Counted from the first letter of the stretch, positions 13,291-46,461 are shown. The stretch: 64,000 bases of DNA from an uncultured bacterium (GCA_964524145.1 CAZGCA010000010.1:13807-77806); one strand, 5' to 3'. Numbers and translations: made by a program. The notes: a model not told the origin generated them from the letters alone.

Positions 13291-13419
13291 ACTCCTTCTG
13301 GACGAGCGTCGGACGCAGGGGCAACGTTAATAGAACCCTTCCCTCTTCTTGGTCGGGGGCTAATGGTATCATGGCGGCGCGGCAGCGTCAAATCGAGCCG
13401 CAAAGACCGGCTACCACGC

Positions 13420-13490
13420 ACTGGACGATGTTAGAACTCTGGCAGCGCCTCTCAGGTCCGCTGCTTAGTTGAAGCTCGATTGTCTTGTTC
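13420..13490. mobile_element. Short remnant of the IS transposase 3' coding end (copy F)
   Basis: gcactggacgatgttagaactctggcagcgcctctcagg...gcttagttgaagctcg is homologous to 17445-17500 and to the coding end of the 45905..46204 transposase fragment (ctggaagcgagaagagaactcgaggctgag). Confidence 0.4.
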
Positions 13491-15084: not shown

Positions 15085-15200
15085 GTTGGTAGAGATTCGG
15101 CTTCGTTCCCAGGTTAGCGGCCTTCCTTCAAACTAACGTTTGAGCCTTCAGTTTCGTTCGTGCTTCAAGTATCGCCTCCCTTCTTCCGTAGTATACATCA
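15085..15200. mobile_element. IS transposase 3'-end remnant (copy C), terminus truncated
   Basis: ggtagagattcggcttcgttcccaggttagcggccttccttcaaactaacg...agtatcgcctcccttcttccgtagtatacatc aligns with 25395-25525 and, in reverse complement, with 17480-17560. Confidence 0.5.
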
Positions 15201-16979: not shown

Positions 16980-17440
16980 GATGGTTAATCCCGCTGGGGC
17001 CGGGACTCTGTGTTGAGCGTCAGCTGGCCGAGCTCAAACAGAATGTGGAAAACTGGCTTGACTTGATCGGAAGCGGCACGGCGAGAAAGACCGGGTCAGC
17101 TGAGAGTCTGCTCGAGAAGATCGGACACGCCGAAAAGCAGGGTAAGCAAATCGAGCATGAGCTTATTGTGCTGGAGCTCGAACAGGGCGAACTTGAGAAG
17201 CAGGTCCTTAACGCGGAAGTCATGCAGGACTCGCTTATCCGGTTCCGAGACCTCTTTGATTTGGCTACCGATGAGGAAAAAGAGTACCTGTTCCAGTTGA
17301 TGATCGGGCGGATTATCTGGACTCCTGAGGGAATAAAGAAGGGCCTGTACGATCGACCGACCGATACAGGGCGCTTGTCCAAGCCTCATGATGTTAACCA
17401 GAACAGCGATTCTTCGCTGAGAACCGCAATATGCCTCCCC
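16980..17440 (+). pseudogene. C-terminal fragment of a large serine recombinase (coiled-coil and terminal helix), degenerate
   Basis: ORF 16907..17491 encodes a coiled-coil segment (LAELKQNVENWL...ELIVLELEQGELEKQV) followed by LFDLATDEEKEYLFQLMIGRIIWTPEG, the characteristic extreme C-terminus of large serine recombinases. There is no catalytic N-terminal domain. It abuts an IS remnant. Confidence 0.4.
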
Positions 17441-17444
17441 GCAC

Positions 17445-17586
17445 TGGACGATGTTAGAACTCTTGAGGTAGCACTCAGGAAGGTGGCTTAGTTCAAACGC
17501 TGGCTCGAAGGAAGGCTGCTCACCTGGGAACGAAGCCGAATCTCTACCCTAATTCGACCCGGCCACTGTCCCAAATGTTCTGAAGA
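17445..17586 (+). mobile_element. IS transposase 3'-end remnant with terminal repeat (copy D)
   Basis: ...cgaaggaaggctgctcacctgggaacgaagccgaatctctaccctaattcgacccggccactgtcccaaatgttctgaaga. The terminus gtcccaaatgttctgaaga is shared with the copies at 46189-46207 and, in reverse complement, 25366-25384. Confidence 0.55.
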
Positions 17587-17760
17587 CGCACACTGACAGC
17601 CTTTCAGCCCGGCGCGCGTGAGCGTCACGATCCATTTCCCTTTTTCCGCAAGTGTTGCTTAGCCCCAGGTCGGAGTTTTGTAACCGGGAAGAAGCCGTTC
17701 GCGATGCGCTTTCGGACTATTATCTGCTCTGCTATTGCTCGTAATCGAAATATGATCTTT

Positions 17761-20109: not shown

Positions 20110-20395
20110 ACTATACGTATTCGGAACATCTGGGAAAGATTGGAGCCGGTGGTAGAGTAGATATTCGGCCTCTGGCAACCGCCCAGGTTGAGAGCTTCGC
20201 GTCGTGCTAGCGTCCGGGCCCTGAGTTCCATTCCTGTTGTACCCCCCAGCGTGCCCGAATAGTCGATTTCTTCCTTGACACCCCATCTCAATGCAGGTAT
20301 GCGACCTATAGAGTAGATCTTCCGGTCAGAATATCTACAGAAGTTGGATGCTCCATATCTGGCTTCCCGTACTGGACGATGTTAGAACTATGGAG
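20110..20395. mobile_element. IS transposase 3'-end remnant (copy E), internally deleted
   Basis: ttcggaacatctggga...ggtagagtagatattcggcctctggcaaccgcccaggttgagagcttcgcgtcgtgc aligns with 25375-25470. atttcttccttgacaccccatctcaatgcaggtatgcgacctatagagtagatcttccggtcagaatatctacagaag (20262-20343) is near-identical to 25748-25826. The tggacgatgttagaact block at 20374-20394 matches copy F. Confidence 0.55.
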
Positions 20396-20477: not shown

Positions 20478-21413
20478 TCACTTCTGAAGAATCAACGGCT
20501 TCGACTCTAGTGTCTGCCTGATCCCCTTGGCGACATCACTGAAGCCCTGATCTTGATTTTTCCACCCGCCAGCGACAGGTTTTCCGTCGGTAGGCAATGC
20601 CTTTAACTTGGAAAACGGTGCTTTATGCCAGTCACAATCTCTCAAGATGACAGGTATCACTATCGCACGTTTCAGTTGATGCTGCTGGAGTGCGAATTTC
20701 ATCTCTACCCCAGTACAGTACTCTGACGCCATAAAGCTCCGACTTACAAGAAGTAGAATCATTCGAGCTTTCTTCAGATTCTCGTCGATCTCATTGTCGA
20801 CCTCTCCGCCAGGAAGAATCTGACGATCATACCACTCGGATATGTAACCTTGGTTCTTCAAGAGACTCAAGTGGTCGTCCAACTTTTTCAGCATCCTCTT
20901 GTCTTCGTGGGAATACGAATAGAAAAGGAGTATTGGATCCTGGTTGGCCCTGCCGTTCTCTCCGGACACGATACTAGTCACGCCATCTGGTGCGTGTACG
21001 GCACCGGGCTGCGCTGGCTGGATGGGCACCCCGCTGTTCCCAAGACGCTCAATGAACAAGTTCCGCTCACCGTAAGTGCTGTAGTGGGAATAAATGGCGC
21101 TGAGCTGATCGTGGCTTATGGGCTCGCTGAGCCCCGCCAAGAATCTCACTGACTTCCCGATGATCTCATCGAAATCGTTGCCCATCAATTGAACAGAAAC
21201 GCAAAGGAGAACCTTGTGAAAACCGACAGGGTCCACATCCCATGTCGGCAATTCTTCAAGCAAACGGTCGATGAAATGGGATGGGTCCAAATGAGGAACG
21301 TTGAAATTCTTTTGGCTATGATACCAATCCAATGCTAGGAATCCCCACAGATCCCCGTCGAGATAGCTCTTGATGTACGACAGCCAATCCTTCATTTTAT
21401 TCTTATCCCACAC
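20478..21413 (-). CDS. TIR-domain protein (unknown roughly 150-aa N-terminal domain, C-terminal TIR_2-like domain with the catalytic Glu motif)
   Basis: The C-terminal ILLFYSYSHEDKRMLKKLDDHLSLLKNQGYISEWYDRQILPGGEVDNEIDENLKKARMILLLVSRSFMASEYCTGVEMKFALQQHQLKRAIVIPVILRDCDWH follows the bacterial TIR pattern (FISYSHED...W.DR.I.PG......I...A...ILLVS..F..S.YC..E). It is the last gene of the 4-gene operon. It is AT-rich relative to its surroundings. Confidence 0.7.
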   Translation of the reverse strand: MWDKNKMKDWLSYIKSYLDGDLWGFLALDWYHSQKNFNVPHLDPSHFIDRLLEELPTWDVDPVGFHKVLLCVSVQLMGNDFDEIIGKSVRFLAGLSEPISHDQLSAIYSHYSTYGERNLFIERLGNSGVPIQPAQPGAVHAPDGVTSIVSGENGRANQDPILLFYSYSHEDKRMLKKLDDHLSLLKNQGYISEWYDRQILPGGEVDNEIDENLKKARMILLLVSRSFMASEYCTGVEMKFALQQHQLKRAIVIPVILRDCDWHKAPFSKLKALPTDGKPVAGGWKNQDQGFSDVAKGIRQTLESKPLILQK

Positions 21414-23169
21414 AAGGGCACTCGTGAGCGCGCCGAGGCGGAGATGCCCATGAATAGAGTGCTACGTAGTGAGAATCATGGAGAAACTCACCAATCGAGA
21501 AGCCATTAGCGGTTCTGTCCAAAAAGACGGCGAAGGACAGAATGTTGGCATCGTAGAACTCACAGATTGCACGCAAAGCGGATAGTGTTTTGAAGTGATG
21601 TGCTGCTTGATCAACAATCAGTACCGAAGCCGCCGTTAGTGCCTCAGATCCATAGGTGTCGTTGATGAAATCGACCACCTCCGAACCAACGTGCTGTCCA
21701 GCTACCATAGCAAGGAGATCGCGTGGTATACCAATCACGCTGTCCGGTCGCAGACCTAGAACGTCGCTGATAGCCAAACCGAGTCTTTTGGCCTCAGGCT
21801 CGTCGGGAATCACGATCTTACGAATCCACCGCGGGATTATGCCCCGCGTCGTAAGCGCATTGCGAATCCGGAGCGCAAGGTCGAAGCTATGCCTCCCAAA
21901 AATCGGCTCTGTCATAACCCGAAAGTGATAGTGATTGGGAGTCCGGTCTGACGGCCAGTGCCCCACACTATAGAAATCATCGTGCTGCGCCACCAATTCC
22001 CAAAACGTCACAGGGTCGAAGCTCTCGACCTGACGAGCGAAAGCATCGAAATACTGACCCTTAATGGGTGGTATGCCCTGGTCGCAGTACTTGCAGGAAG
22101 CGTCGACCGTATTGATAGCTGAAAAAGGCACATCAAAGTAAAAGAGGGTGCTAGCTTCCACGAAATGGGGCGTATTCCGAAAACGACCGATGCCAGCGAC
22201 CACTATATTTCTGCAACCGCTTGAATGCAATTTCCGAACGGTGTCATTGAGGGGATACATGGGCCCAATGAAATCGCATAAAACAGCAGTGCTGTTGGCC
22301 GGTGTTCTTGTGGCGTCATCTTCGGATGCCAAGAGACGTTCGCTGCTACCCTCGACGAGTTCTATCGCCAGTTCACGAATCCCGCCCATTGGGATGCCAA
22401 AGGGCCATACAGCGAAACTGGAATCGTGCATCCTAACACTAAGATCTTGCCGAAGCTGATTAACGAATGTCGCATTCTCTGCAAGCTTGCGGACAGAAGC
22501 CACGATAGGCAGGTGGAAGATGCGACCGCTGCAGTCCAATTCAAAATGGCCAAACAAGCATCCCATCATCGACTCGATCTCGGGTGCAGAGAGAGTAGGT
22601 CCTGGTTCACTTGCTCTTTCTGGCCTATCGTATTCAGCTTCCAGCGGCGGCAGACCAACGATACTTGTGAGAGATCCATGACACAGCAGTTCCGGCGAAT
22701 GTTCGGGATTGTCAGAAAGCAAAATAAGGGTGATCTTTTTCTTGTTACATAAAGGCATAAGTTTCTGTCGCAGAAAAACGGATTCCAGAAAGGCAAAAGG
22801 GTTTGCCACGGCGACGGTTATGTACCGAGGCGCAACAGCTTTCTCCCTACCGAGTGTAACGAAGAGCGAGTTACAGAAGTCGTCGTATAAATCAACGTCT
22901 GCATTTGGGTCCAGAAACTCGAGAAGCAGTGCGTGACAGGGAACCTTCCGCTTCCTGCAAAGTATCGCGGCCAATCCATCCAGCAAGGGACCAAGATCTG
23001 ACGAAAGCACGATTTCTCTTGGCTGCCTGAACTGCATTCGCGTTGCTGAGGACCCATCGATCAACGACAAGAAAGATCGATAACTATCTGTTGGAATTAC
23101 CGTGTAGACAACCGAATCTGGGCGATAGACTTTTGCTGCGTAGACAGGAAGCCTGTCTGCACTAGGCAT
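21403..23169 (-). CDS. Large protein with a C-terminal phosphoribosyltransferase (PRTase)-like domain and a terminal Cys/His cluster
   Basis: The C-terminal VLIVDQAAHHFKTLSALRAICEFYDANILSFAVFLDR resembles the PRPP-binding loop of type I PRTases (hydrophobic4-D-x6-T-L; compare AGAKVVAIAVLIDR in PyrE/Apt). CKYCDQG and HECPC motifs are present. Its start overlaps the GHKL gene stop by 8 nt and its stop overlaps the TIR gene start by 11 nt. Confidence 0.5.
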   Translation of the reverse strand: MPSADRLPVYAAKVYRPDSVVYTVIPTDSYRSFLSLIDGSSATRMQFRQPREIVLSSDLGPLLDGLAAILCRKRKVPCHALLLEFLDPNADVDLYDDFCNSLFVTLGREKAVAPRYITVAVANPFAFLESVFLRQKLMPLCNKKKITLILLSDNPEHSPELLCHGSLTSIVGLPPLEAEYDRPERASEPGPTLSAPEIESMMGCLFGHFELDCSGRIFHLPIVASVRKLAENATFVNQLRQDLSVRMHDSSFAVWPFGIPMGGIRELAIELVEGSSERLLASEDDATRTPANSTAVLCDFIGPMYPLNDTVRKLHSSGCRNIVVAGIGRFRNTPHFVEASTLFYFDVPFSAINTVDASCKYCDQGIPPIKGQYFDAFARQVESFDPVTFWELVAQHDDFYSVGHWPSDRTPNHYHFRVMTEPIFGRHSFDLALRIRNALTTRGIIPRWIRKIVIPDEPEAKRLGLAISDVLGLRPDSVIGIPRDLLAMVAGQHVGSEVVDFINDTYGSEALTAASVLIVDQAAHHFKTLSALRAICEFYDANILSFAVFLDRTANGFSIGEFLHDSHYVALYSWASPPRRAHECPCVG

Positions 23170-24250
23170 TCGATACGTTCTCCAGCGGCGTTTGGATCCT
23201 GAGTAACGTTCCCGGACTCTCTAACAGTGCGTCGTTCGCATCCGTCTTCCGGGACGTGAAGTCAACGCAGGCTTTCCCGGCACGAATACGGAGCTCACCC
23301 TTCTGTTTCAGTACGTGGGACTTCAGGTAGTATAGTCCGACGCCTGCGCGTTCAGACTCGGAACTGACGCCTTTCTCGGTGGAAATCCTGATTAGCTTTG
23401 AGTCCAGTATCATTTCCGGCTCAGTGAAATACTTGATAAGGTCAGCGTCACTATACTTTAGCAGCTTCTTTCGGGCGCCCGATTCCTGAAACGCGGCTCT
23501 CAAGACGCGAGGTATACCTGCGCCATTGTCAGATATGGCCAGTGTCAGGTTCTTAGCATCCAGACGCATCGAGAGATTAACGAAAGACCCCTTCGCATGG
23601 AGCAATGAGTTCCGTATGCCCTCGCGTAAAACGCGCTGCATAAAGGTGCGTGTGACCTGGTTATCCCATCCGCACATCTGGCTAAGAGCACCAACAATGA
23701 CTTGGCCCTCAAGTTTGTCGAATTGTCGCTGCTGCTTTTCGACTTGCTCGGGGTCCTTTTCTTCGGCCGAAAAGGTAGATATCTCGAGTATCCTGAGGGT
23801 GTGAAGGACAGTCTCATCGCCAAACTGATCTGTTCCCTTTGCGTGACGGTATTGGGACACTCGGTCTAGGTGTGATAACTGTTTACGGCTCAGCAGATTC
23901 GCGGGTTGATCAACACACAGCGAGAGCGCATGGAAGAACTGCCAACGAAGCAGAAAATCCCAGAGTTTCTCGCCTTTGCTGTCCGTAGGCTCAGGAAAGA
24001 TGAGTTGGATGTCATTCCCTTGAATCCTCAGTTTGTGAAGAACAGCAATGAGCCAGAGCAACGTACCCAAGTCGTGCCAGTATGATCGCGACAAGTCAAA
24101 GATAATATATCTGCCGCATGCCTTGTCAAGACCGTCGATATGTTCTGCTTGAAACGCCTTGGCAATAGTCTTCTCCAATTTCAACTGCTTCAGGTAGTAT
24201 TCTGTTCGAATCTTCAGAGGCGTTCCTATTGCCTGTTCGTCAATTGGCAT
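23162..24250 (-). CDS. GHKL-superfamily ATPase (HATPase_c-like) with an N-terminal STAS-like segment
   Basis: N-box REGIRNSLLHAKG, G1 ISDNGAGIP and G2 GVGLYYLKS are present. The N-terminal YIIFDLSRSYWHDLGTLLWLIAVLHKLRIQGNDIQLIFPEP is STAS-like. There is no obvious His-kinase H-box or dimerisation domain. Confidence 0.55.
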   Translation of the reverse strand: MPIDEQAIGTPLKIRTEYYLKQLKLEKTIAKAFQAEHIDGLDKACGRYIIFDLSRSYWHDLGTLLWLIAVLHKLRIQGNDIQLIFPEPTDSKGEKLWDFLLRWQFFHALSLCVDQPANLLSRKQLSHLDRVSQYRHAKGTDQFGDETVLHTLRILEISTFSAEEKDPEQVEKQQRQFDKLEGQVIVGALSQMCGWDNQVTRTFMQRVLREGIRNSLLHAKGSFVNLSMRLDAKNLTLAISDNGAGIPRVLRAAFQESGARKKLLKYSDADLIKYFTEPEMILDSKLIRISTEKGVSSESERAGVGLYYLKSHVLKQKGELRIRAGKACVDFTSRKTDANDALLESPGTLLRIQTPLENVSNA

Positions 24251-24271
24251 GGCTTTCTCCCATGTAACCGG

Positions 24272-24973
24272 CTATAGGCGGCTTATCAGAGACTCTACTG
24301 CCTTCTGCAGGTCGTGTGCTTCATATATGGCACGTCCAACAATTGCATGCCAACGGGAACCCGCAGCTTGTGCAGCTTCGCTTATTTTGCCTCCTTGCGA
24401 AATGAAACCGGGGGCATAGAAAACGGGGTCCACCCCATGAGATGAGAGCAAATCCCTAATGTGGCTGATTACCCCTGGCTTGTTCCCCGGAACAACGTAA
24501 TCTTCAATTCCAAGAAAGGCGGAATTGGTGAACATCTTGTCAACGGCACGGTCTTCGATGTAACCACCGTCGGATGATAGGTATCTCTCGTGAGTCATAT
24601 GGCCGCCTGCTATGATTGTCAGTCCGATCTCTTGGGCTGACTGAATCCAAGCTGTCTGTGTAGCTGGACCCGACAGCGGGAACACAATCATCGCATCTAT
24701 ACCACTCTCCTTAATGGTCTTGGCGAAACCACGGCCCATATCAGGTATATCTGTGCACGCCTTTTGGTGGTCGTAAATCAGCGGCTTCTCTGTGTACCTC
24801 CGAGCAATCTCAACCAAGCTTGGGAGACCCGAAGATAGCGCCAGCGCAGCACCTATCTTGTACGCACCAATCCGAAGGATTGACTGTGTTTCTTTTATAA
24901 TGTCTTCGTAGCGCTCTTTGCTTACGTCGCATGCAGGAACAATACTGCGATCGATCTTAATTATGGTCGACAT
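24272..24973 (-). CDS. Orotidine-5'-phosphate decarboxylase (OMPDC) superfamily protein, PyrF-like fold; first gene of the operon
   Basis: IIKIDRSIVPACDV...GAYKIG, then LIYDHQKACTDIPDM (compare PyrF D-x-K-x-x-D-I-P-N-T), and the C-terminal IVGRAIYEAHDLQKAVESL (compare VIGRPVTQ...). Its 233 aa matches PyrF length. Confidence 0.55.
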   Translation of the reverse strand: MSTIIKIDRSIVPACDVSKERYEDIIKETQSILRIGAYKIGAALALSSGLPSLVEIARRYTEKPLIYDHQKACTDIPDMGRGFAKTIKESGIDAMIVFPLSGPATQTAWIQSAQEIGLTIIAGGHMTHERYLSSDGGYIEDRAVDKMFTNSAFLGIEDYVVPGNKPGVISHIRDLLSSHGVDPVFYAPGFISQGGKISEAAQAAGSRWHAIVGRAIYEAHDLQKAVESLISRL

Positions 24974-25365
24974 GATCAGCTACCTTTCTAAGGGCATGCC
25001 CACACTGGAGAGATGAAGAGGTCTGCGCACATCAGACTTTTCATTCCTCCCGTCTCCAAACAAAACAGCCGTTAAGTCTCACATTACCCGTAGGAACGGC
25101 GGCAATAGTGCCTGGAAACACCCGGGCCTATCAAACCGCCAACGCATCCACACCAATTGGGGGATACTAGTGTTGTAATTCGTCGTGAAAACCACCAGTT
25201 CTCGCCTGCTTTATCCCAGTCGTTGTGAGCGATACTGGGAACGACGGGTTACACTGTTCCTTACAGACTGACACTGTACCACCGCTCTGAATTCAATTCA
25301 ACCACTTCCCGGTTTCACCGAATACTTCGAAACACAAACGCATCACCCAAGGTCGAACGGTGTAC

Positions 25366-25830
25366 GTCTTCAGAACATTTGGGACAAATTAAAACCAGTA
25401 ATAGAGTAGAGATTCGGCCTTTGTATCCCAGTTTGGGAACCTCAGGTCGTGCTCGGGTCTGTGCCTTGAGCCTCCTCCGAGCCTCAAATATCGCTTCCCT
25501 TCTCTTGTAGTATGCATCATCAGGGGTAACGTGTCCCAAATTCAGTTCCCGAGGCTTTTGTAAGGGGCGCCTGCGCAAGATGCTGCAATGCGAGCCTTGC
25601 CTGGCTATCCATATGTTCTCTACTTAGTAGACGCGAAAACACCCTCTTTTCTTTCACCTTCGCTCCGAATTTGTGCCATCGCGTTCACTTGGCCAGATAT
25701 GTGCCGCTAAGGAATGGGTCTTCTCCCCCTCCGTTCCCATATAGTAGATTTCTTCCTTGACACCGCATCTCTTTGCAGGCATGCGACTTATAGAGTAGAT
25801 CTTCCGATTCAAATATCTACAGAAAGGCGG
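25366..25830 (-). mobile_element. IS transposase 3'-end remnant with terminal repeat (copy B); the rve integrase-core C-terminus is detectable
   Basis: ORF 25315..25578 translates to ...LGHVTPDDAYYKRREAIFEARRRLKAQTRA, homologous to ...[31 protein letters not shown] at 45905..46204. The end tcttcagaacatttgggac at 25366 is the reverse complement of the shared terminus. Confidence 0.6.
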
Positions 25831-26071
25831 TGCTGCAAAACCGGCTCCCCGGGTTCGTTTTCGCAGAGCAGTAATTCGAACAAACACGCCTCGCGGCTGA
25901 GTGTAGCCAAGATAAGACGTACTTGGCCTGCCGTCATGGGAGTTACGTTGAGAACCCACTGCGGAGGGAACATTGACCCTCGATTTACCGTCATGCTAGA
26001 ATCCGAACCGCACAGAGAAGCGTACCTAATTGGGTGATAGAAAAAGCACAGGAAGAGGAGCCAGGACACTC

Positions 26072-44198: not shown

Positions 44199-45827
44199 TC
44201 ATCTCCGCGCGAATCCGTCCGGGACTTTGGTTGCGCGGAGGATGCTCATCAGTTCATCACGAAGTCGCTTTGCGGTTCCCGCATGTCTCGGCACGCCTGC
44301 CAGGTTGGTCCACTCGTGCGGATCGGTGTCGTGGTCGTAGAGCTCTTCTTCACCATTCGCGCAGAGCGTGTATCGGTACCGGTGCGAACGAACCGAGAAA
44401 TGAGGAATCTCCTCACCATCCCGGACGGCCATCAGGGCTACCGGTGGTCCGTCCCATGTTTCGCGGTCAGGTTCCTCCAACAACGGCCGCAGCGAACAGC
44501 CATCCAGACGCGCGTCGCTGCGGCCTTCGTTCGGTTGACCGGGCAGCCCGCACAAGTCCACCAGCGTGGGGTAGAGGTCTATCAATGAAACGGGATGGTT
44601 GCAGGTCCGACCGTTTGCCGGGGAGCCCGGAACGTGAACAAGCAGCGGCACCCGCGTGGACTCGTCCCACAGATGCCACTTCTGGATGCAATCCTTCTCG
44701 CCGACATGGTATCCGTTGTCGCCGGTCAACACCACGATCGTGTTGTCCCGGTACGGGCTGGTATCCAGCGCTTGCAACACGTTGCCCACCTGGTCGTCCA
44801 CGAACGCCGTGCAGGCAAGATACGCCTGTACCCATTCTTTCCACGCTTTTTCGCCTCCGGCCTCAATCAACGCCTCGTACTTCTTGAAGCCCCACTCCCA
44901 TCGGTTGCGCAGGACGGAAGCACAATCGTCGAGATCGTTCTTCAAATACGGCGGGAGGTGAATGCGTTCCAGAGGAAACATGTCAAAGTACTTCTTGGGA
45001 GCGTAGAGCGGCGTGTGCGGACGGATGAAACCGACGCCCAGGTAGAAAGGCCGATCATGCTGCTTCTTCAACACGTCCACTGCCCAGTCGGCGGAGACTT
45101 CGTCGGGCATTCTGTCGCGATCATTGTCGTCAACGTACCTGAACGGTGTCCCATTCTCGGAATACCACCCTTTTGCTCCGGGTATGCCGTTTGCGGGGGC
45201 TGCCTGCCACTCCGGCACGTTCGAGAGGGGACCGTAGTTGAGATCACGATGCATCTTCATCGGAAGGACCTGTTCCCATACCTCAAACTGTGTCGGGTGC
45301 GGCGTGTTACGCGGTTTGCCTTTCCCTTGCCACGGCCAGGGACCGTAGTCGGGACTTATGCCGTAACCGGCATAGAAATCGCCGCCTGCTCCCTCGTGTA
45401 ACAACTTGCCCGTGCCATACGAGCTATATCCGTTGCTGCGAAAATGTTGGGGGAGCGGCACACACTCCTGAAGCAAAGGGACTGCTGCCCATCGATCAAA
45501 CCCGTAGTCATCCAATCGCTGGGGATACAACCCCGAGAACAGGCATTTGCGCGAGGGGCCGCACACCGGTACGACAACGTGTGCATTGGTGAAACTCACA
45601 CTTCTCTGCCGAAGCCGGTCGATGTTCGGGACTCTTGCCTTCGGGTGTCCCGGTGGATGCAACGCCCAATCGTTCAGGTCGTCACAGATGATCAACAACA
45701 CGTTCGGCCGCCTCACCGAGCCTTCCGCTGCGTACGTGAGCCGACCGCAGGCGAGTGCCGTCAACCCGAGTCCGGCCGATTTCAGAAATCCCCTTCGTTC
45801 CATTCTGTGAGCGCTATGATCCATCAT
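44199..45827 (-). CDS. Sulfatase (formylglycine-dependent arylsulfatase family) with a TAT signal
   Basis: RRGFLKSAGLGLTALA (TAT), VLLIICDDLNDW, and CGPSRKCLFSGLYP (the C-x-P-x-R signature). Confidence 0.8.
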   Translation of the reverse strand: MMDHSAHRMERRGFLKSAGLGLTALACGRLTYAAEGSVRRPNVLLIICDDLNDWALHPPGHPKARVPNIDRLRQRSVSFTNAHVVVPVCGPSRKCLFSGLYPQRLDDYGFDRWAAVPLLQECVPLPQHFRSNGYSSYGTGKLLHEGAGGDFYAGYGISPDYGPWPWQGKGKPRNTPHPTQFEVWEQVLPMKMHRDLNYGPLSNVPEWQAAPANGIPGAKGWYSENGTPFRYVDDNDRDRMPDEVSADWAVDVLKKQHDRPFYLGVGFIRPHTPLYAPKKYFDMFPLERIHLPPYLKNDLDDCASVLRNRWEWGFKKYEALIEAGGEKAWKEWVQAYLACTAFVDDQVGNVLQALDTSPYRDNTIVVLTGDNGYHVGEKDCIQKWHLWDESTRVPLLVHVPGSPANGRTCNHPVSLIDLYPTLVDLCGLPGQPNEGRSDARLDGCSLRPLLEEPDRETWDGPPVALMAVRDGEEIPHFSVRSHRYRYTLCANGEEELYDHDTDPHEWTNLAGVPRHAGTAKRLRDELMSILRATKVPDGFARR

Positions 45828-45904
45828 GCAATCCCCATTGCCGACTTGGAAGCTCCGCCACGGGCACCGGCTGTTCTCTCTCCTGCCAAATGATAGTAAT
45901 TCAG

Positions 45905-46207
45905 GGGCCGCAATTCAAGCAATCCAGGGCCGGACTGGAATGGCACCTAGCATACAAGGCCCCGTGGGAGCTGGCCGAAGAGATCGGTGCGTTTGTGGTC
46001 TACTACAATAGCCGGCGGTACCACGAAGCCCTGGGCAACGTCACGCCCGATGATGTATACTTTGGAAGAAGGGACGCGATACTGGAAGCGAGAAGAGAAC
46101 TCGAGGCTGAGACGCCGGCACGACGCAAAACTCTCAACCAGGGCGGTTGGAAGAGGTCAAATCTCTACCCTGGTATGGGCTCCAATGTGCCCCAAATGTT
46201 CTGAAGA
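45905..46207 (+). pseudogene. 3' fragment of a DDE (rve integrase-core) IS transposase gene with the element terminus (copy A)
   Basis: ORF 45755..46204 ends ...AYKAPWELAEEIGAFVVYYNSRRYHEALGNVTPDDVYFGRRDAILEARRELEAETPARRKTLNQ, the characteristic C-terminus of IS3/IS481-type DDE transposases. It is followed by the terminus gccccaaatgttctgaaga. No catalytic core lies upstream. Confidence 0.55.
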
Positions 46208-46461
46208 ATTACATTTTTCGAGAAGCAGATCCTGCGCGCCCGGCAAGTCGAACCGGCCATCATTTTCATATCGGGTTGGCACGACTGGCACTACGGAAAT
46301 CAAATCGAGCCAGCGGTGGAATACGGATACCAATACGTCGATCTCGCCGCACGGCTGTTGGGGCGCTCGGAAGAAACCCGCTCCTACAGGGAATCGGACT
46401 GAGCGACGGGCACTTTGAAGCATGGTGCGTCATCGGGAACGACGGAGAAAGGGCAAGCTGA

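What the first reader, a model, noticed from the sequence alone, without database searches (positions are those of the whole stretch)
20478..24973. Four-gene operon: OMPDC-fold protein, GHKL-STAS ATPase, PRTase-like protein, TIR-domain protein, in a low-GC island
The four minus-strand genes are tightly packed. The first two are 22 nt apart, and the others overlap by 8 nt and 11 nt, which implies translational coupling. In transcription order they encode a PyrF-like orotidine-phosphate-decarboxylase-fold protein, a GHKL ATPase with a STAS-like N-terminus, a 588-aa protein ending in a PRPP-binding-loop-like PRTase domain plus a Cys/His cluster, and a protein with a C-terminal TIR domain. The TIR domain retains the catalytic Glu context (SEYCTGVE, compare SSWC..EL), so it is likely NAD-cleaving. 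GC content falls to roughly 45-50 %, against roughly 62 % in the flanking core genes. The block is bracketed by two degenerate copies of the same IS transposase 3' end (20110-20395 and 25366-25830). TIR domains are established signal generators or NADase effectors in Thoeris, CBASS and related defence systems. PRTase domains occur as retron effectors. I do not recognise the combination of TIR, PRTase, OMPDC and GHKL as a described system. Working hypotheses: (i) an abortive-infection or signalling system in which the TIR domain makes an ADP-ribose-derived signal sensed by the PRTase-like domain, which has a phosphoribosyl-binding fold; or (ii) a module that makes or turns over a modified nucleotide (PRTase plus OMPDC is UMP-synthase logic) coupled to NAD depletion.
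Basis: partly seen in the sequence, partly recalled or inferred. Interest (0 to 1): 0.85.

Follow-up and report, generated by a model that had tools for sequence, protein, structure and literature searches.

The report
Undescribed four-gene candidate phage-defence cassette
This low-GC island carries a rare, horizontally moving four-gene cassette in which three conserved proteins related to UMP synthesis and to bacterial partner-switch kinases sit next to a fourth protein whose "killer" enzyme domain (here an NAD-cleaving TIR) is swapped between genomes, which is the signature of an anti-phage immune system that has apparently not been described.

Summary
Four tightly packed minus-strand genes (20478-24973) encode A, a variant OMP-decarboxylase; B, a STAS domain fused to a SpoIIAB/RsbW-type GHKL ATPase; C, a 588-aa protein ending in an orotate-PRTase-like domain with a 4-Cys cluster; and D, a TIR protein. 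The block is the lowest-GC stretch of the window (50.6% vs 58.4%) and lies between two truncated rve-transposase 3' ends.

New here: A-B-C-D order is conserved in every one of more than 30 loci with enough sequence, from at least five distant lineages. Only 4 of 185,579 species genomes carry it. All D proteins share a ~120-aa N-terminal adaptor. Their C-terminal enzyme varies: TIR, PNP nucleosidase, calcineurin-like phosphoesterase, AdoHcy-hydrolase-like with or without cytidine deaminase. Effector types are interspersed on the C tree. Neighbours are often defence or mobile-element genes (Hma, PDC-S54/S68, DndB/Mrr, DruA, HicAB, HipA, IS66).

PADLOC, Pfam and NCBIfam do not recognise A-C as a defence system, and no held paper describes the combination.

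Best reading: a new abortive-infection-type defence system. A UMP-synthase-like pair (C+A) and a STAS-GHKL switch (B) control a swappable nucleotide- or cofactor-depleting effector (D). TIR is the effector, not a Thoeris-like signal maker. Function and mechanism are inferred, not tested.

The parts
24272..24973 (-). Gene A: 233-aa variant OMP-decarboxylase-family enzyme. It keeps the phosphoribosyl-binding residues (K39, SQGG, GRAIY). The catalytic DxKxxD loop is replaced by an invariant 'YDHQKAxTDIP'.
   Evidence: Pfam OMPdecase 2.8e-10. NCBIfam PyrF models score far below cut-off, 63.6 vs 208 bits. Alignment to M. thermautotrophicus OMPDC. No indels and an invariant loop in 7 loci. Most conserved of the four proteins, 57-71% identity.
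23162..24250 (-). Gene B: 362-aa fusion of an N-terminal STAS-like domain (residues ~10-165, 23756-24223) and a C-terminal GHKL ATPase/kinase of the anti-sigma-factor type (residues ~195-357, 23180-23668). The N-box (E210, N214), G1 (D241xGxG245) and G2 (G303xG305) motifs are invariant.
21403..23169 (-). Gene C: 588-aa multidomain protein specific to this system. It has two N-terminal alpha/beta domains, a helical region with invariant 'GHW..RT.NHY', and a C-terminal OPRT-like PRTase domain (residues ~445-575; the domain plus C-terminal Cys tail spans 21406-21837). The PRPP loop is degenerate ('VLIVDQAAHHFKT') and is followed by 'LDRT'. A Cys quartet (C359, C362, C584, C586) probably binds Zn.
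20478..21395 (-). Gene D (305 aa from ATG 21395; the longest ORF extends to GTG 21413). It has an N-terminal ~120-aa, probably all-helical adaptor domain (21021-21395; invariant W4, W17, G18, D23, P38, H60), a linker, and a C-terminal TIR domain (about 20604-20924) with catalytic Glu E231.
   Evidence: TIR_2 2e-15. PADLOC ThsB PDLC00420 5.8e-51. Best solved relative is the Cat1 TIR NADase, with the Glu aligned. The adaptor is shared by all fourth-gene products at 30-75% identity. Residue numbering.
20114..20369 (.). Left flanking remnant of an rve-type (IS3/IS481-like) transposase 3' end, with a ~230-nt internal deletion relative to the right copy.
   Evidence: Direct repeats D1 and D2. blastn/tblastx to the copy at 46030-46220, whose ORF reads [20 protein letters not shown] and hits rve_3 at 1.2e-4.
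25363..25851 (.). Right flanking remnant of the same transposase 3' end, in direct orientation with the left copy. Together they bracket the ~5-kb low-GC island.
   Evidence: Pfam did not recognise the fragments themselves.

Best explanation
The island carries a previously undescribed four-gene anti-phage, abortive-infection-type system.

Shown:
- A, B and C form an invariant core and D is an adaptor-effector protein.
- D's conserved N-terminal domain is fused to interchangeable enzymes that destroy nucleotides or cofactors. Here it is a TIR NADase. Elsewhere it is a PNP-type nucleosidase, a calcineurin-like phosphoesterase, or an AdoHcy-hydrolase-like domain with or without a cytidine deaminase.

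Inferred mechanism:
- C (OPRT-like) and A (variant OMPDC) act as a UMP-synthase-like two-step module. It makes, or in the uninfected cell removes, a phosphoribosyl (orotidylate-like) nucleotide ligand.
- B, a STAS domain fused to a SpoIIAB-type GHKL ATPase, is an ATP-dependent partner switch that gates this module in response to infection.
- The ligand, or the B/C complex, engages D's adaptor domain and triggers effector activation. For TIR this is probably by oligomerisation.
- The effector depletes NAD+, stopping phage replication at the cost of the cell.

My estimates: about 0.8 that this is a defence system with a swappable effector, and about 0.3 that a small-molecule nucleotide made by A/C is the activating signal. 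The overall confidence given is for the statement as a whole, weighted towards the architectural claim.
For: - Strict A-B-C-D order with tight or overlapping junctions in every locus with enough sequence: more than 30 loci and about 23 distinct cassettes.
- All D proteins share the N-terminal domain, while the C-terminal domains fall into TIR (~11), PNP (11), Metallophos (3 distinct), AdoHcyase-like (4, one with dCMP deaminase) and one unknown.
- Effector types are interspersed on the C tree, which indicates repeated swapping.
- These effector classes are known immune effectors: PADLOC ThsB, TIR-SAVED, CBASS PN-superfamily effector and dCTPase models hit them; the Cat1 TIR NADase is the closest solved TIR; PNP ATP nucleosidases are described in 10.1101/2023.01.24.525353.
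- Neighbours are defence or mobile-element genes in many independent loci: HmaB/HmaC, PDC-S54 + PDC-S68, PDC-M02B, DndB/Mrr/HsdR-N, BsobI + MTase, DruA + IS66, HicAB, HipA, Prim-Pol/ParB/AcrVA2-like.
- The distribution is sporadic: 4 of 185,579 species genomes, in 4 phyla.
- The window copy is a low-GC island between IS remnants.
- B's ATP-binding motifs are invariant, and its folds are STAS plus SpoIIAB.
- The adaptor has no homotypic counterpart in A, B or C. In this it resembles ligand-sensor domains fused to effectors in signalling systems more than homotypic death-like adaptors.
- The conservation gradient A > B > D adaptor ~ C fits an enzyme acting on a universal metabolite plus faster-evolving sensor and coupling parts.
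Against: - There is no experimental evidence of any kind; defence is inferred from architecture and context.
- C's PRPP loop lacks the second acidic residue and the T-G phosphate-binding turn (VDQAAHHFKT). C may therefore only bind a ligand, as PurR does, and not catalyse.
- A's catalytic loop carries insertions, so its reaction is unknown.
- The D adaptor has only six invariant residues and no detectable relatives or fold assignment. Ligand binding is a guess.
- The window's own flanks are carbohydrate-degradation genes, not defence genes.
- No systematic, background-corrected defence-island enrichment was computed.
- The family is absent from IMG/VR, and only environmental MAGs carry it, so no host-phage pair is known.
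Confidence: 0.55

Rival explanations
1. Protein relay rather than small-molecule signal. B acts like an anti-sigma factor or CheA-type kinase directly on D. Either it sequesters D's helical adaptor until a partner switch releases it, or it phosphorylates the adaptor's single invariant histidine (H60). In this reading A and C serve only as metabolite sensors, for example of PRPP, OMP or (p)ppGpp levels disturbed by phage.
For: - B's GHKL domain is closest to SpoIIAB, RsbW and histidine-kinase CA domains, with intact ATP motifs.
- The fused STAS has Asp at the position I align with the SpoIIAA phospho-serine. This alignment is my own, from memory of the SpoIIAA sequence, so a different target is plausible.
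- H60 is the only residue invariant in all 29 adaptors.
- C and D are translationally coupled and evolve at similar rates.
Against: - B has no DHp or HisKA domain, and D has no receiver or recognisable HPt fold.
- The adaptor looks like 6-7 short helices, not a four-helix bundle (read from the sequence only).
- This reading does not explain why A is the most conserved component and keeps an enzyme-like active site.
Confidence: 0.2
2. Thoeris-like signalling: the TIR protein makes an ADP-ribose-derived signal that the PRTase-like domain of C senses.
For: The TIR domain scores 5.8e-51 on a PADLOC ThsB model. PRTase folds bind phosphoribosyl ligands.
Against: - The TIR position is occupied by PNP, Metallophos, AdoHcyase-like or deaminase domains in most other loci, behind the same adaptor and with the same A-B-C core.
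- No ThsA-like, SLOG or Macro effector is present.
- There would be no terminal effector left in the system.
Confidence: 0.03
3. Not immunity: a mobile nucleotide or nucleoside metabolic or biosynthetic cassette (for example for a modified nucleoside or nucleoside antibiotic, or specialised pyrimidine salvage), with D as a tailoring enzyme.
For: Every catalytic domain in the cassette belongs to nucleotide or nucleoside metabolism: OMPDC, PRTase, PNP, deaminase, AdoHcyase-like, phosphoesterase. L046 adds a true OPRT. The window's neighbours are catabolic genes.
Against: - Chemically unrelated enzymes are interchangeable at one position behind a shared non-catalytic adaptor, and are interspersed on the tree. 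That is not how pathways evolve.
- A TIR with an intact catalytic Glu and PADLOC effector matches.
- A partner-switch kinase is in the core.
- No transporter, resistance or regulator genes are conserved nearby.
- Defence, toxin-antitoxin and IS neighbourhoods recur.
Confidence: 0.08
4. Addiction or toxin-antitoxin-type module of mobile elements: D is a toxin held in check by A-C, stabilising the island rather than primarily defending against phage.
For: IS, recombinase, Prim-Pol and toxin-antitoxin neighbourhoods. Decayed copies exist. D is potentially toxic.
Against: A four-gene, ~4.5-kb architecture with two enzyme-like regulators is far more complex than known addiction modules. The two roles are not mutually exclusive, as many toxin-antitoxin systems (for example ShosTA, PMC11961720) defend against phage.
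Confidence: 0.08
5. Ordinary housekeeping pyrF/pyrE genes with accessory neighbours.
For: A hits OMPdecase and C has an OPRT-like fold.
Against: - A scores 63.6 bits against the 208-bit PyrF cut-off and has an altered catalytic loop.
- C has no Pribosyltran Pfam hit and a degenerate PRPP loop.
- It is present in only 4 of 185,579 species genomes.
- It sits in a low-GC, IS-bracketed island.
Confidence: 0.01

Closest known systems
Second-messenger defence systems with sensor-domain-fused swappable effectors (CBASS, Pycsar, type III CRISPR accessory effectors such as Cat1, Thoeris)
   Same: The effector protein is a conserved non-catalytic N-terminal domain plus an interchangeable toxic domain. 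The repertoire is the same: TIR NADase, PNP/PN-superfamily nucleosidase, phosphoesterase. The locus is operonic, defence-island-associated and sporadically distributed.
   Different: There is no CD-NTase, cyclase, Cas10 or signal-making TIR, and no SAVED, CARF, SLOG or cNMP sensor domain. The candidate signal module is an OPRT-like protein plus an OMPDC-like protein, which no known system uses. No PADLOC model hits A, B or C.
Detocs (two-component-like defence with a PNP ATP-nucleosidase effector; 10.1101/2023.01.24.525353)
   Same: A histidine-kinase-superfamily ATPase lies upstream of an effector that is most often a PNP nucleosidase. The effector carries an N-terminal regulatory domain.
   Different: B has no DHp or phospho-His domain and is closest to the anti-sigma factor SpoIIAB, fused to STAS. 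D's adaptor is not a receiver domain. Detocs has no OMPDC or PRTase components.
PRTase-containing defence systems: ShosTA (PMC11961720), PsyrTA, type III retron effectors, Ophion OpnC (10.1101/2025.09.30.679545)
   Same: A type-I PRTase fold is used in anti-phage defence and linked to nucleotide metabolism.
   Different: In those systems the PRTase is the toxin or effector and has a canonical active site. Here the PRTase-like domain is part of the conserved core, has a degenerate PRPP loop, and is accompanied by a separate effector. No PADLOC ShosT or retron model hits C. There is no DprA-like antitoxin, RT, rSAM or PHP partner.
Partner-switching modules SpoIIAB-SpoIIAA, RsbW-RsbV and SiaB-SiaC
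   Different: The two are fused in one polypeptide. The canonical phospho-Ser position appears to be Asp (my alignment). There is no sigma factor or PP2C phosphatase in the locus, and the output is presumably an immune effector.
UMP synthase / PyrE + PyrF
   Same: An OPRT-like fold and an OMPDC-family barrel are encoded together. The phosphoribosyl-binding residues of A are retained. One locus adds a genuine OPRT.
   Different: Both have non-canonical catalytic loops, are far below family cut-offs, are sporadically distributed, and are embedded in a mobile cassette with a kinase-like switch and a toxic effector.

Membership tests
Thoeris | TIR-domain ThsB protein | tested here: met
   PADLOC ThsB PDLC00420 at 5.8e-51 and Pfam TIR_2 at 2e-15 on D.
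Thoeris | Adjacent ThsA effector (SIR2, TM or Macro domain with a SLOG-type signal sensor) | tested here: not met
   No PADLOC or Pfam ThsA, SIR2 or SLOG hit on A, B or C.
Thoeris | TIR is the obligatory signal generator of the system | tested here: not met
   TIR is replaced by PNP, Metallophos, AdoHcyase-like or deaminase domains in homologous cassettes.
CBASS / Pycsar | CD-NTase or pyrimidine cyclase signal synthase | tested here: not met
   No PADLOC or Pfam hit of that kind in the cassette.
Detocs / two-component phosphorelay | Histidine kinase with a DHp (HisKA) phospho-acceptor domain | tested here: not met
   Only HATPase_c is detected. The N-terminus is STAS, and the best GHKL match is SpoIIAB.
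Detocs / two-component phosphorelay | Receiver (REC) domain on the effector | tested here: not met
   The D adaptor has no Response_reg hit and no PDB relatives.
ShosTA / retron PRTase effectors | PRTase toxin with a canonical PRPP loop plus a DprA-like antitoxin or RT-msDNA | tested here: not met
   PRTase fold present, but the PRPP loop is degenerate. No PADLOC ShosT, ShosA or retron hit. No such partner genes.
Housekeeping PyrF (OMP decarboxylase) | Score above the equivalog cut-off and a DxKxxD catalytic loop | tested here: not met
   63.6 bits against a 208-bit cut-off. The loop is DHQKAxTD, with insertions, and invariant in the family.
Housekeeping PyrE (OPRT) | Pribosyltran HMM match with a D-D...T-G-x-T PRPP loop | tested here: not met
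   No Pfam or NCBIfam hit. The loop is VDQAAHHFKT. For contrast, the genuine OPRT in L046 hits 4ohc at 3.6e-35.
Partner-switching module (anti-sigma GHKL kinase + STAS antagonist) | GHKL Ser-kinase fold and STAS fold | tested here: met
Partner-switching module (anti-sigma GHKL kinase + STAS antagonist) | Phosphorylatable Ser/Thr at the N-terminus of STAS helix 2, and a sigma-factor or other sequestered partner | tested here: inconclusive
   The conserved D60-L-G62 sits where helix 2 starts in the model. My ungapped alignment with B. subtilis SpoIIAA, from memory, puts D60 at Ser58. No sigma factor is in the locus. The partner cannot be identified with these tools.
Anti-phage defence system (generic) | Protects cells against phage | not testable with these tools
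   Only indirect evidence is available: modular effectors, defence and mobile-element neighbourhoods, sporadic distribution.

The most novel reading that the evidence does not exclude
The cassette is a new class of immune signalling pathway. A UMP-synthase-derived enzyme pair (OPRT-like C plus variant OMP-decarboxylase A), gated by a STAS-GHKL partner switch, synthesises or edits a pyrimidine-type (orotidylate-derived) mononucleotide alarm signal. A new all-helical sensor domain reads that signal and activates TIR, PNP, phosphoesterase, deaminase or AdoHcyase-like effectors. This would be a signal-generating chemistry unrelated to CD-NTases, cyclases, Cas10 or TIR.
Probability: 0.25. Interest if true: 0.92.

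Novelty: new variant of a known kind. Interest (0 to 1): 0.78.

Why it matters
If confirmed, this adds a defence system whose conserved core shares no component with any described system. It would recruit the two enzymes of UMP synthesis and a sporulation/stress-type partner-switch kinase into immunity.

It offers four things:
- A possible new route for making or sensing an immune nucleotide signal.
- A new adaptor/sensor domain that couples to at least five effector chemistries. One is an AdoHcy-hydrolase-like domain that, to my knowledge, has not been reported as an immune effector.
- A natural experiment in effector modularity.
- A caution for annotation pipelines, which would label the window's D as an orphan ThsB and A as PyrF.

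The hypothesis is directly testable with a 4.5-kb construct and point mutants.

Tried and rejected
- Internal duplication in C (a second PRTase-like domain at residues ~190-352, suggested by 'VLCDF...' resembling a PRPP loop): hhalign probability below 1%, so not claimed.
- Homotypic partner of D's adaptor inside A, B or C (death-like/EAD logic): the HMM finds only D proteins, and hhalign probability is below 1%.
- Homology search with the isolated adaptor: no scorable candidates, a wasted search. The adaptor profile against PDB gave only noise at E >= 0.2.
- Pfam on the IS-remnant ORFs gave no hits. tblastn against plasmids gave one weak hit, to a JAB-domain gene. The transposase reading was rescued through the third copy at 45755-46204.
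- Viral contigs: no relatives of C or of the adaptor, so there is no evidence the cassette is phage-borne.
- Burroughs et al. 2015 (NAR, nucleotide-centric conflict systems) could not be read. Kaur et al. 2020 mentions an OMP-decarboxylase-like domain only as a rare domain in an unrelated two-gene system.
- Sigma-70 promoter and terminator scans gave fewer hits than the shuffles, so they are uninformative for this organism.
- The organism behind the window could not be named: the sources give these proteins no names.

Full report
**1. Observation**

The four minus-strand ORFs exist as described: A 24272-24973 (233 aa), B 23162-24250 (362 aa), C 21403-23169 (588 aa) and D 20478-21413 (311 aa as the longest ORF).

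- A and B are 21 nt apart, with a GGAG before B's ATG.
- B and C overlap by 8 nt, ATGCCTAG.
- D's homologues all start MK/Q/R-x-W, and independent gene callers give 305 aa. D therefore most likely starts at ATG 21395, 7 nt after C's TAA, not at the GTG that would give an 11-nt overlap.
- The block has 50.6% GC against 58.4% for the rest of the window, and it is the lowest-GC 4.5-kb stretch of the 64 kb. GC3 is 0.51-0.60 against 0.65-0.78 in flanking genes.
- Two direct repeats bracket the block: 20243-20369 / 25725-25851 at 80% identity and 20114-20174 / 25363-25423 at 79%.
- Pfam does not recognise these fragments. A third related copy at 45755-46204 reads '...[38 protein letters not shown]' and hits rve_3. 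The 'transposase 3' end' reading therefore stands.
- Flanking genes are an AXE1-type esterase, a 3-keto-disaccharide hydrolase and a GH2 glycosidase, which are ordinary chromosomal catabolic genes.

**2. The four proteins**

*Protein A*
- A is an OMP-decarboxylase-family barrel: Pfam 2.8e-10, and best PDB relatives the M. thermautotrophicus OMPDC series at ~4e-14.
- It is not a PyrF equivalog, scoring 63.6 bits against a 208-bit cut-off.
- It keeps K39 (K42 of the archaeal enzyme), the 'SQGG' gripper loop and the 'GRAIY' phosphate arginine.
- The catalytic DxKxxD is replaced by 'YDHQKAxTDIP', with one extra residue on each side of the lysine. This loop is invariant, and the protein has no indels across loci.

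*Protein B*
- The model is confident (pLDDT 85.7, pTM 0.86).
- Three of seven N-termini give sub-threshold Pfam STAS hits.
- The Bergerat-fold motifs are invariant in 37 homologues: E210/N214, D241xGxG245 and G303xG305.
- B is therefore a fused partner-switching pair. The conserved D60-L-G62 lies at the start of STAS helix 2. In my own ungapped alignment with B. subtilis SpoIIAA, from memory, D60 takes the place of the phospho-serine. This is an inference.

*Protein C*
- C has no Pfam, PADLOC or NCBIfam hit.
- Its model (pLDDT 77) gives type-I PRTases as the only confident Foldseek hits.
- A weak profile hit aligns 'VLIVDQAAHHFKTLSAL' with the PRPP loop 'VLVVDDVADTGETLEAV'.
- Across 53 diverse members the invariant or near-invariant residues are H208/F209/H219, C359/C362/C584/C586, F389/W390, H404/T410/H413, R483, D520-Q-A-A-H524, T528 and R552.
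- By my alignment to E. coli PyrE (from memory), R483, D520 and the 'LDR552' motif correspond to R99, D124 and 'LDR156'. The second acidic residue and the T-A-G-T phosphate turn are lost.
- C therefore probably binds a phosphoribosyl ligand; whether it catalyses is open.

*Protein D*
- D has a TIR domain (TIR_2 2e-15; PADLOC ThsB PDLC00420 5.8e-51).
- Its closest solved relative is the filament-forming CRISPR-associated NADase Cat1, with the catalytic Glu aligned (E231 in 305-aa numbering).

**3. Comparative genomics, the main result**

*Family size and distribution*
- C has only 7 word-index homologues in 5.8 billion proteins.
- The exhaustive profile search finds 135 representatives at the 50% level, nearly all ~580 aa.
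- Only 4 of 185,579 species genomes carry it. They are MAGs of Hydrogenedentota, Ignavibacteriota, Bryobacteraceae and Prolixibacteraceae.
- A further 26 metagenome loci were found. None was found in IMG/VR.

*Conserved order*
- In every locus with enough sequence the order is A-B-C-D, with short gaps or 4-nt overlaps.
- B's 49 homologues sit in the same cassette wherever they were checked.
- Identity to the window proteins falls in the order A (57-71%) > B (37-65%) > D adaptor (30-53%) ~ C (27-48%).

*The variable fourth gene*
- All fourth-gene products share a ~120-aa N-terminal domain. Its invariant residues are W4, W17, G18, D23, P38 and H60.
- Their C-terminal parts are unrelated enzymes:
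  - TIR, in three sequence types, ~11 loci.
  - PNP_UDP_1, 11 loci. PADLOC's CBASS 'PN-superfamily effector' and PDC-M60C models hit them.
  - Metallophos, 3 distinct loci.
  - AdoHcyase_NAD-like, 4 loci, one with an added dCMP/cytidine deaminase that hits PADLOC's dCTPase model.
  - One unknown.

- On a neighbour-joining tree of C the effector types are interspersed. For example, PNP L014 is sister to TIR L017, TIR L010 to PNP L019, and AdoHcyase L045 to TIR L047. The effector domain has therefore been swapped repeatedly behind a constant adaptor.

*Neighbourhoods*
- L028: HmaB/HmaC directly downstream.
- L003: PDC-S54 + PDC-S68 directly downstream.
- L010: PDC-M02B about 1.3 kb downstream.
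- L001: DndB, Mrr_cat and HsdR-N.
- Elsewhere: BsobI + MTase, AAA_21/AbiEii and recombinases.
- L045: DruA and IS66.
- L047: HicAB, HNH and HipA.
- L046: ParB-HTH, Prim-Pol and AcrVA2-like.

*L046*
- L046 carries, directly upstream of A, a genuine OPRT (3.6e-35 to 4ohc, with a canonical PRPP loop). It also carries a second A-type decarboxylase with the same 'YDHQKAGSDIP' loop.

**4. Interpretation**

These features are the standard signature of a defence system:
- an invariant core plus an adaptor-linked, repeatedly swapped effector drawn from known immune effector classes;
- a sporadic cross-phylum distribution;
- island, IS and toxin-antitoxin contexts.

I put this reading at about 0.8. TIR is an effector here, not a Thoeris-type signal generator, because it is interchangeable with PNP and the other domains.

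For the upstream logic I favour the following, at about 0.3:
- The OPRT-like C and OMPDC-like A form a UMP-synthase-like module that makes or removes a phosphoribosyl-nucleotide ligand.
- B is an ATP-dependent partner switch that gates the module.
- D's adaptor is the receptor.

Supporting inferences:
- A's enzyme-like conservation.
- The extra OPRT in L046.
- The lack of any homotypic partner for the adaptor in A-C. This resembles ligand-sensor-effector fusions in CBASS, Pycsar and type III CRISPR more than death-like adaptor pairs.
- The aromatic/Asp/His make-up of the adaptor's few invariant residues.

The main rival, at about 0.2, is a protein relay in which B sequesters the adaptor or phosphorylates its invariant His60. 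A metabolic or biosynthetic cassette (~0.08) and a pure addiction module (~0.08) are less likely. Housekeeping pyrE/pyrF and the Thoeris-like reading are effectively excluded.

**5. Comparison with known systems and novelty**

- PADLOC v2 (2023), including its PDC candidate families, has no model matching A, B or C.
- Ten full-text searches of the held library found no paper that combines an OMP-decarboxylase-like gene with a defence system.
- Known PRTase-bearing systems (ShosTA, PsyrTA, type III retrons, Ophion) use the PRTase as a toxin and have different partners (PMC11961720).
- Detocs shares the kinase-superfamily ATPase and the PNP effector, but not the domain logic.
- The 2015 Aravind-lab survey could not be consulted, so prior in-silico mention cannot be fully excluded.
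- I rate the cassette a new variant of a known kind. It has modular abortive-infection logic with a core that has no described counterpart. If A and C prove to make a new immune nucleotide, it would be categorically new.

**6. Limits**

- Everything functional is inferred.
- The D adaptor's fold was not determined because the structure jobs were exhausted.
- C's N-terminal domains are unassigned.
- Defence-island association was shown by examples, not by a background-corrected statistic.

Noticed in passing
L046:6859-8260: Directly upstream of the A-B-C-D(TIR) cassette this locus carries a second A-type OMP-decarboxylase paralogue (same 'YDHQKAGSDIP' loop) and a genuine orotate PRTase (3.6e-35 to PDB 4ohc). 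The context is mobile-element-like: ParB-HTH, Prim-Pol, AAA_33, AcrVA2-like. This suggests OMP or orotate is the substrate pool of the system.
   Followed up: partly
window:45755-46204 (also short matches at 17429-17593, 15100-15200 and 13409-13442): A third truncated copy of the same rve-type transposase 3' end that brackets the island, in the opposite orientation, plus short related fragments. The window appears littered with decayed copies of one IS.
   Followed up: partly
L023, L034, L035 and L047 (coordinates): Some cassettes look decayed or frameshifted. A is split into two ORFs in L023 and L034. C is in five fragments in L035. D is split into 183-aa and 111-aa (TIR_2) ORFs in L047. These could be pseudogenisation or assembly errors.
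   Followed up: no
L010:6316-7911 and L022:4105-5421: The L010 D protein has ~240 residues after its TIR domain with no Pfam match. The L022 D protein (438 aa) has the adaptor but an effector part with no Pfam match. Both may be further effector types.
   Followed up: no
L001:11789-13939, L006:4153-5748, L007:3827-5266 and L045:11851-13593: An S-adenosylhomocysteine-hydrolase-like (AdoHcyase_NAD) Rossmann domain occupies the effector slot, once fused to a cytidine/dCMP deaminase. To my knowledge this domain has not been reported as an immune effector. Weak PADLOC 'E1-E2' hits are probably generic Rossmann similarity.
   Followed up: partly
L008:47-1997: Amidoligase_2, DUF5049 and GATase_6 genes lie immediately upstream of the cassette. 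This trio may itself be a conflict-type system.
   Followed up: no
window:20478-21395: PADLOC alone would annotate D as an orphan ThsB (5.8e-51), and Pfam/NCBIfam would name A a PyrF-like decarboxylase. Automated pipelines would therefore miss the system or mislabel it as an incomplete Thoeris.
   Followed up: yes
window:24102-24129 (minus strand): A near-consensus sigma-70-like promoter (TTGACA-16-TATTAT, 11/12) lies inside the 5' part of gene B. It was the only hit in the region, where shuffles give about 5 by chance, so it is not significant.
   Followed up: no
L039:4493-5848 and L042:1391-3025: Public gene calls for the identical C gene differ (451, 544 and 588 aa), because callers choose different start codons. 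The 588-aa form matches the homologues' N-termini.
   Followed up: partly
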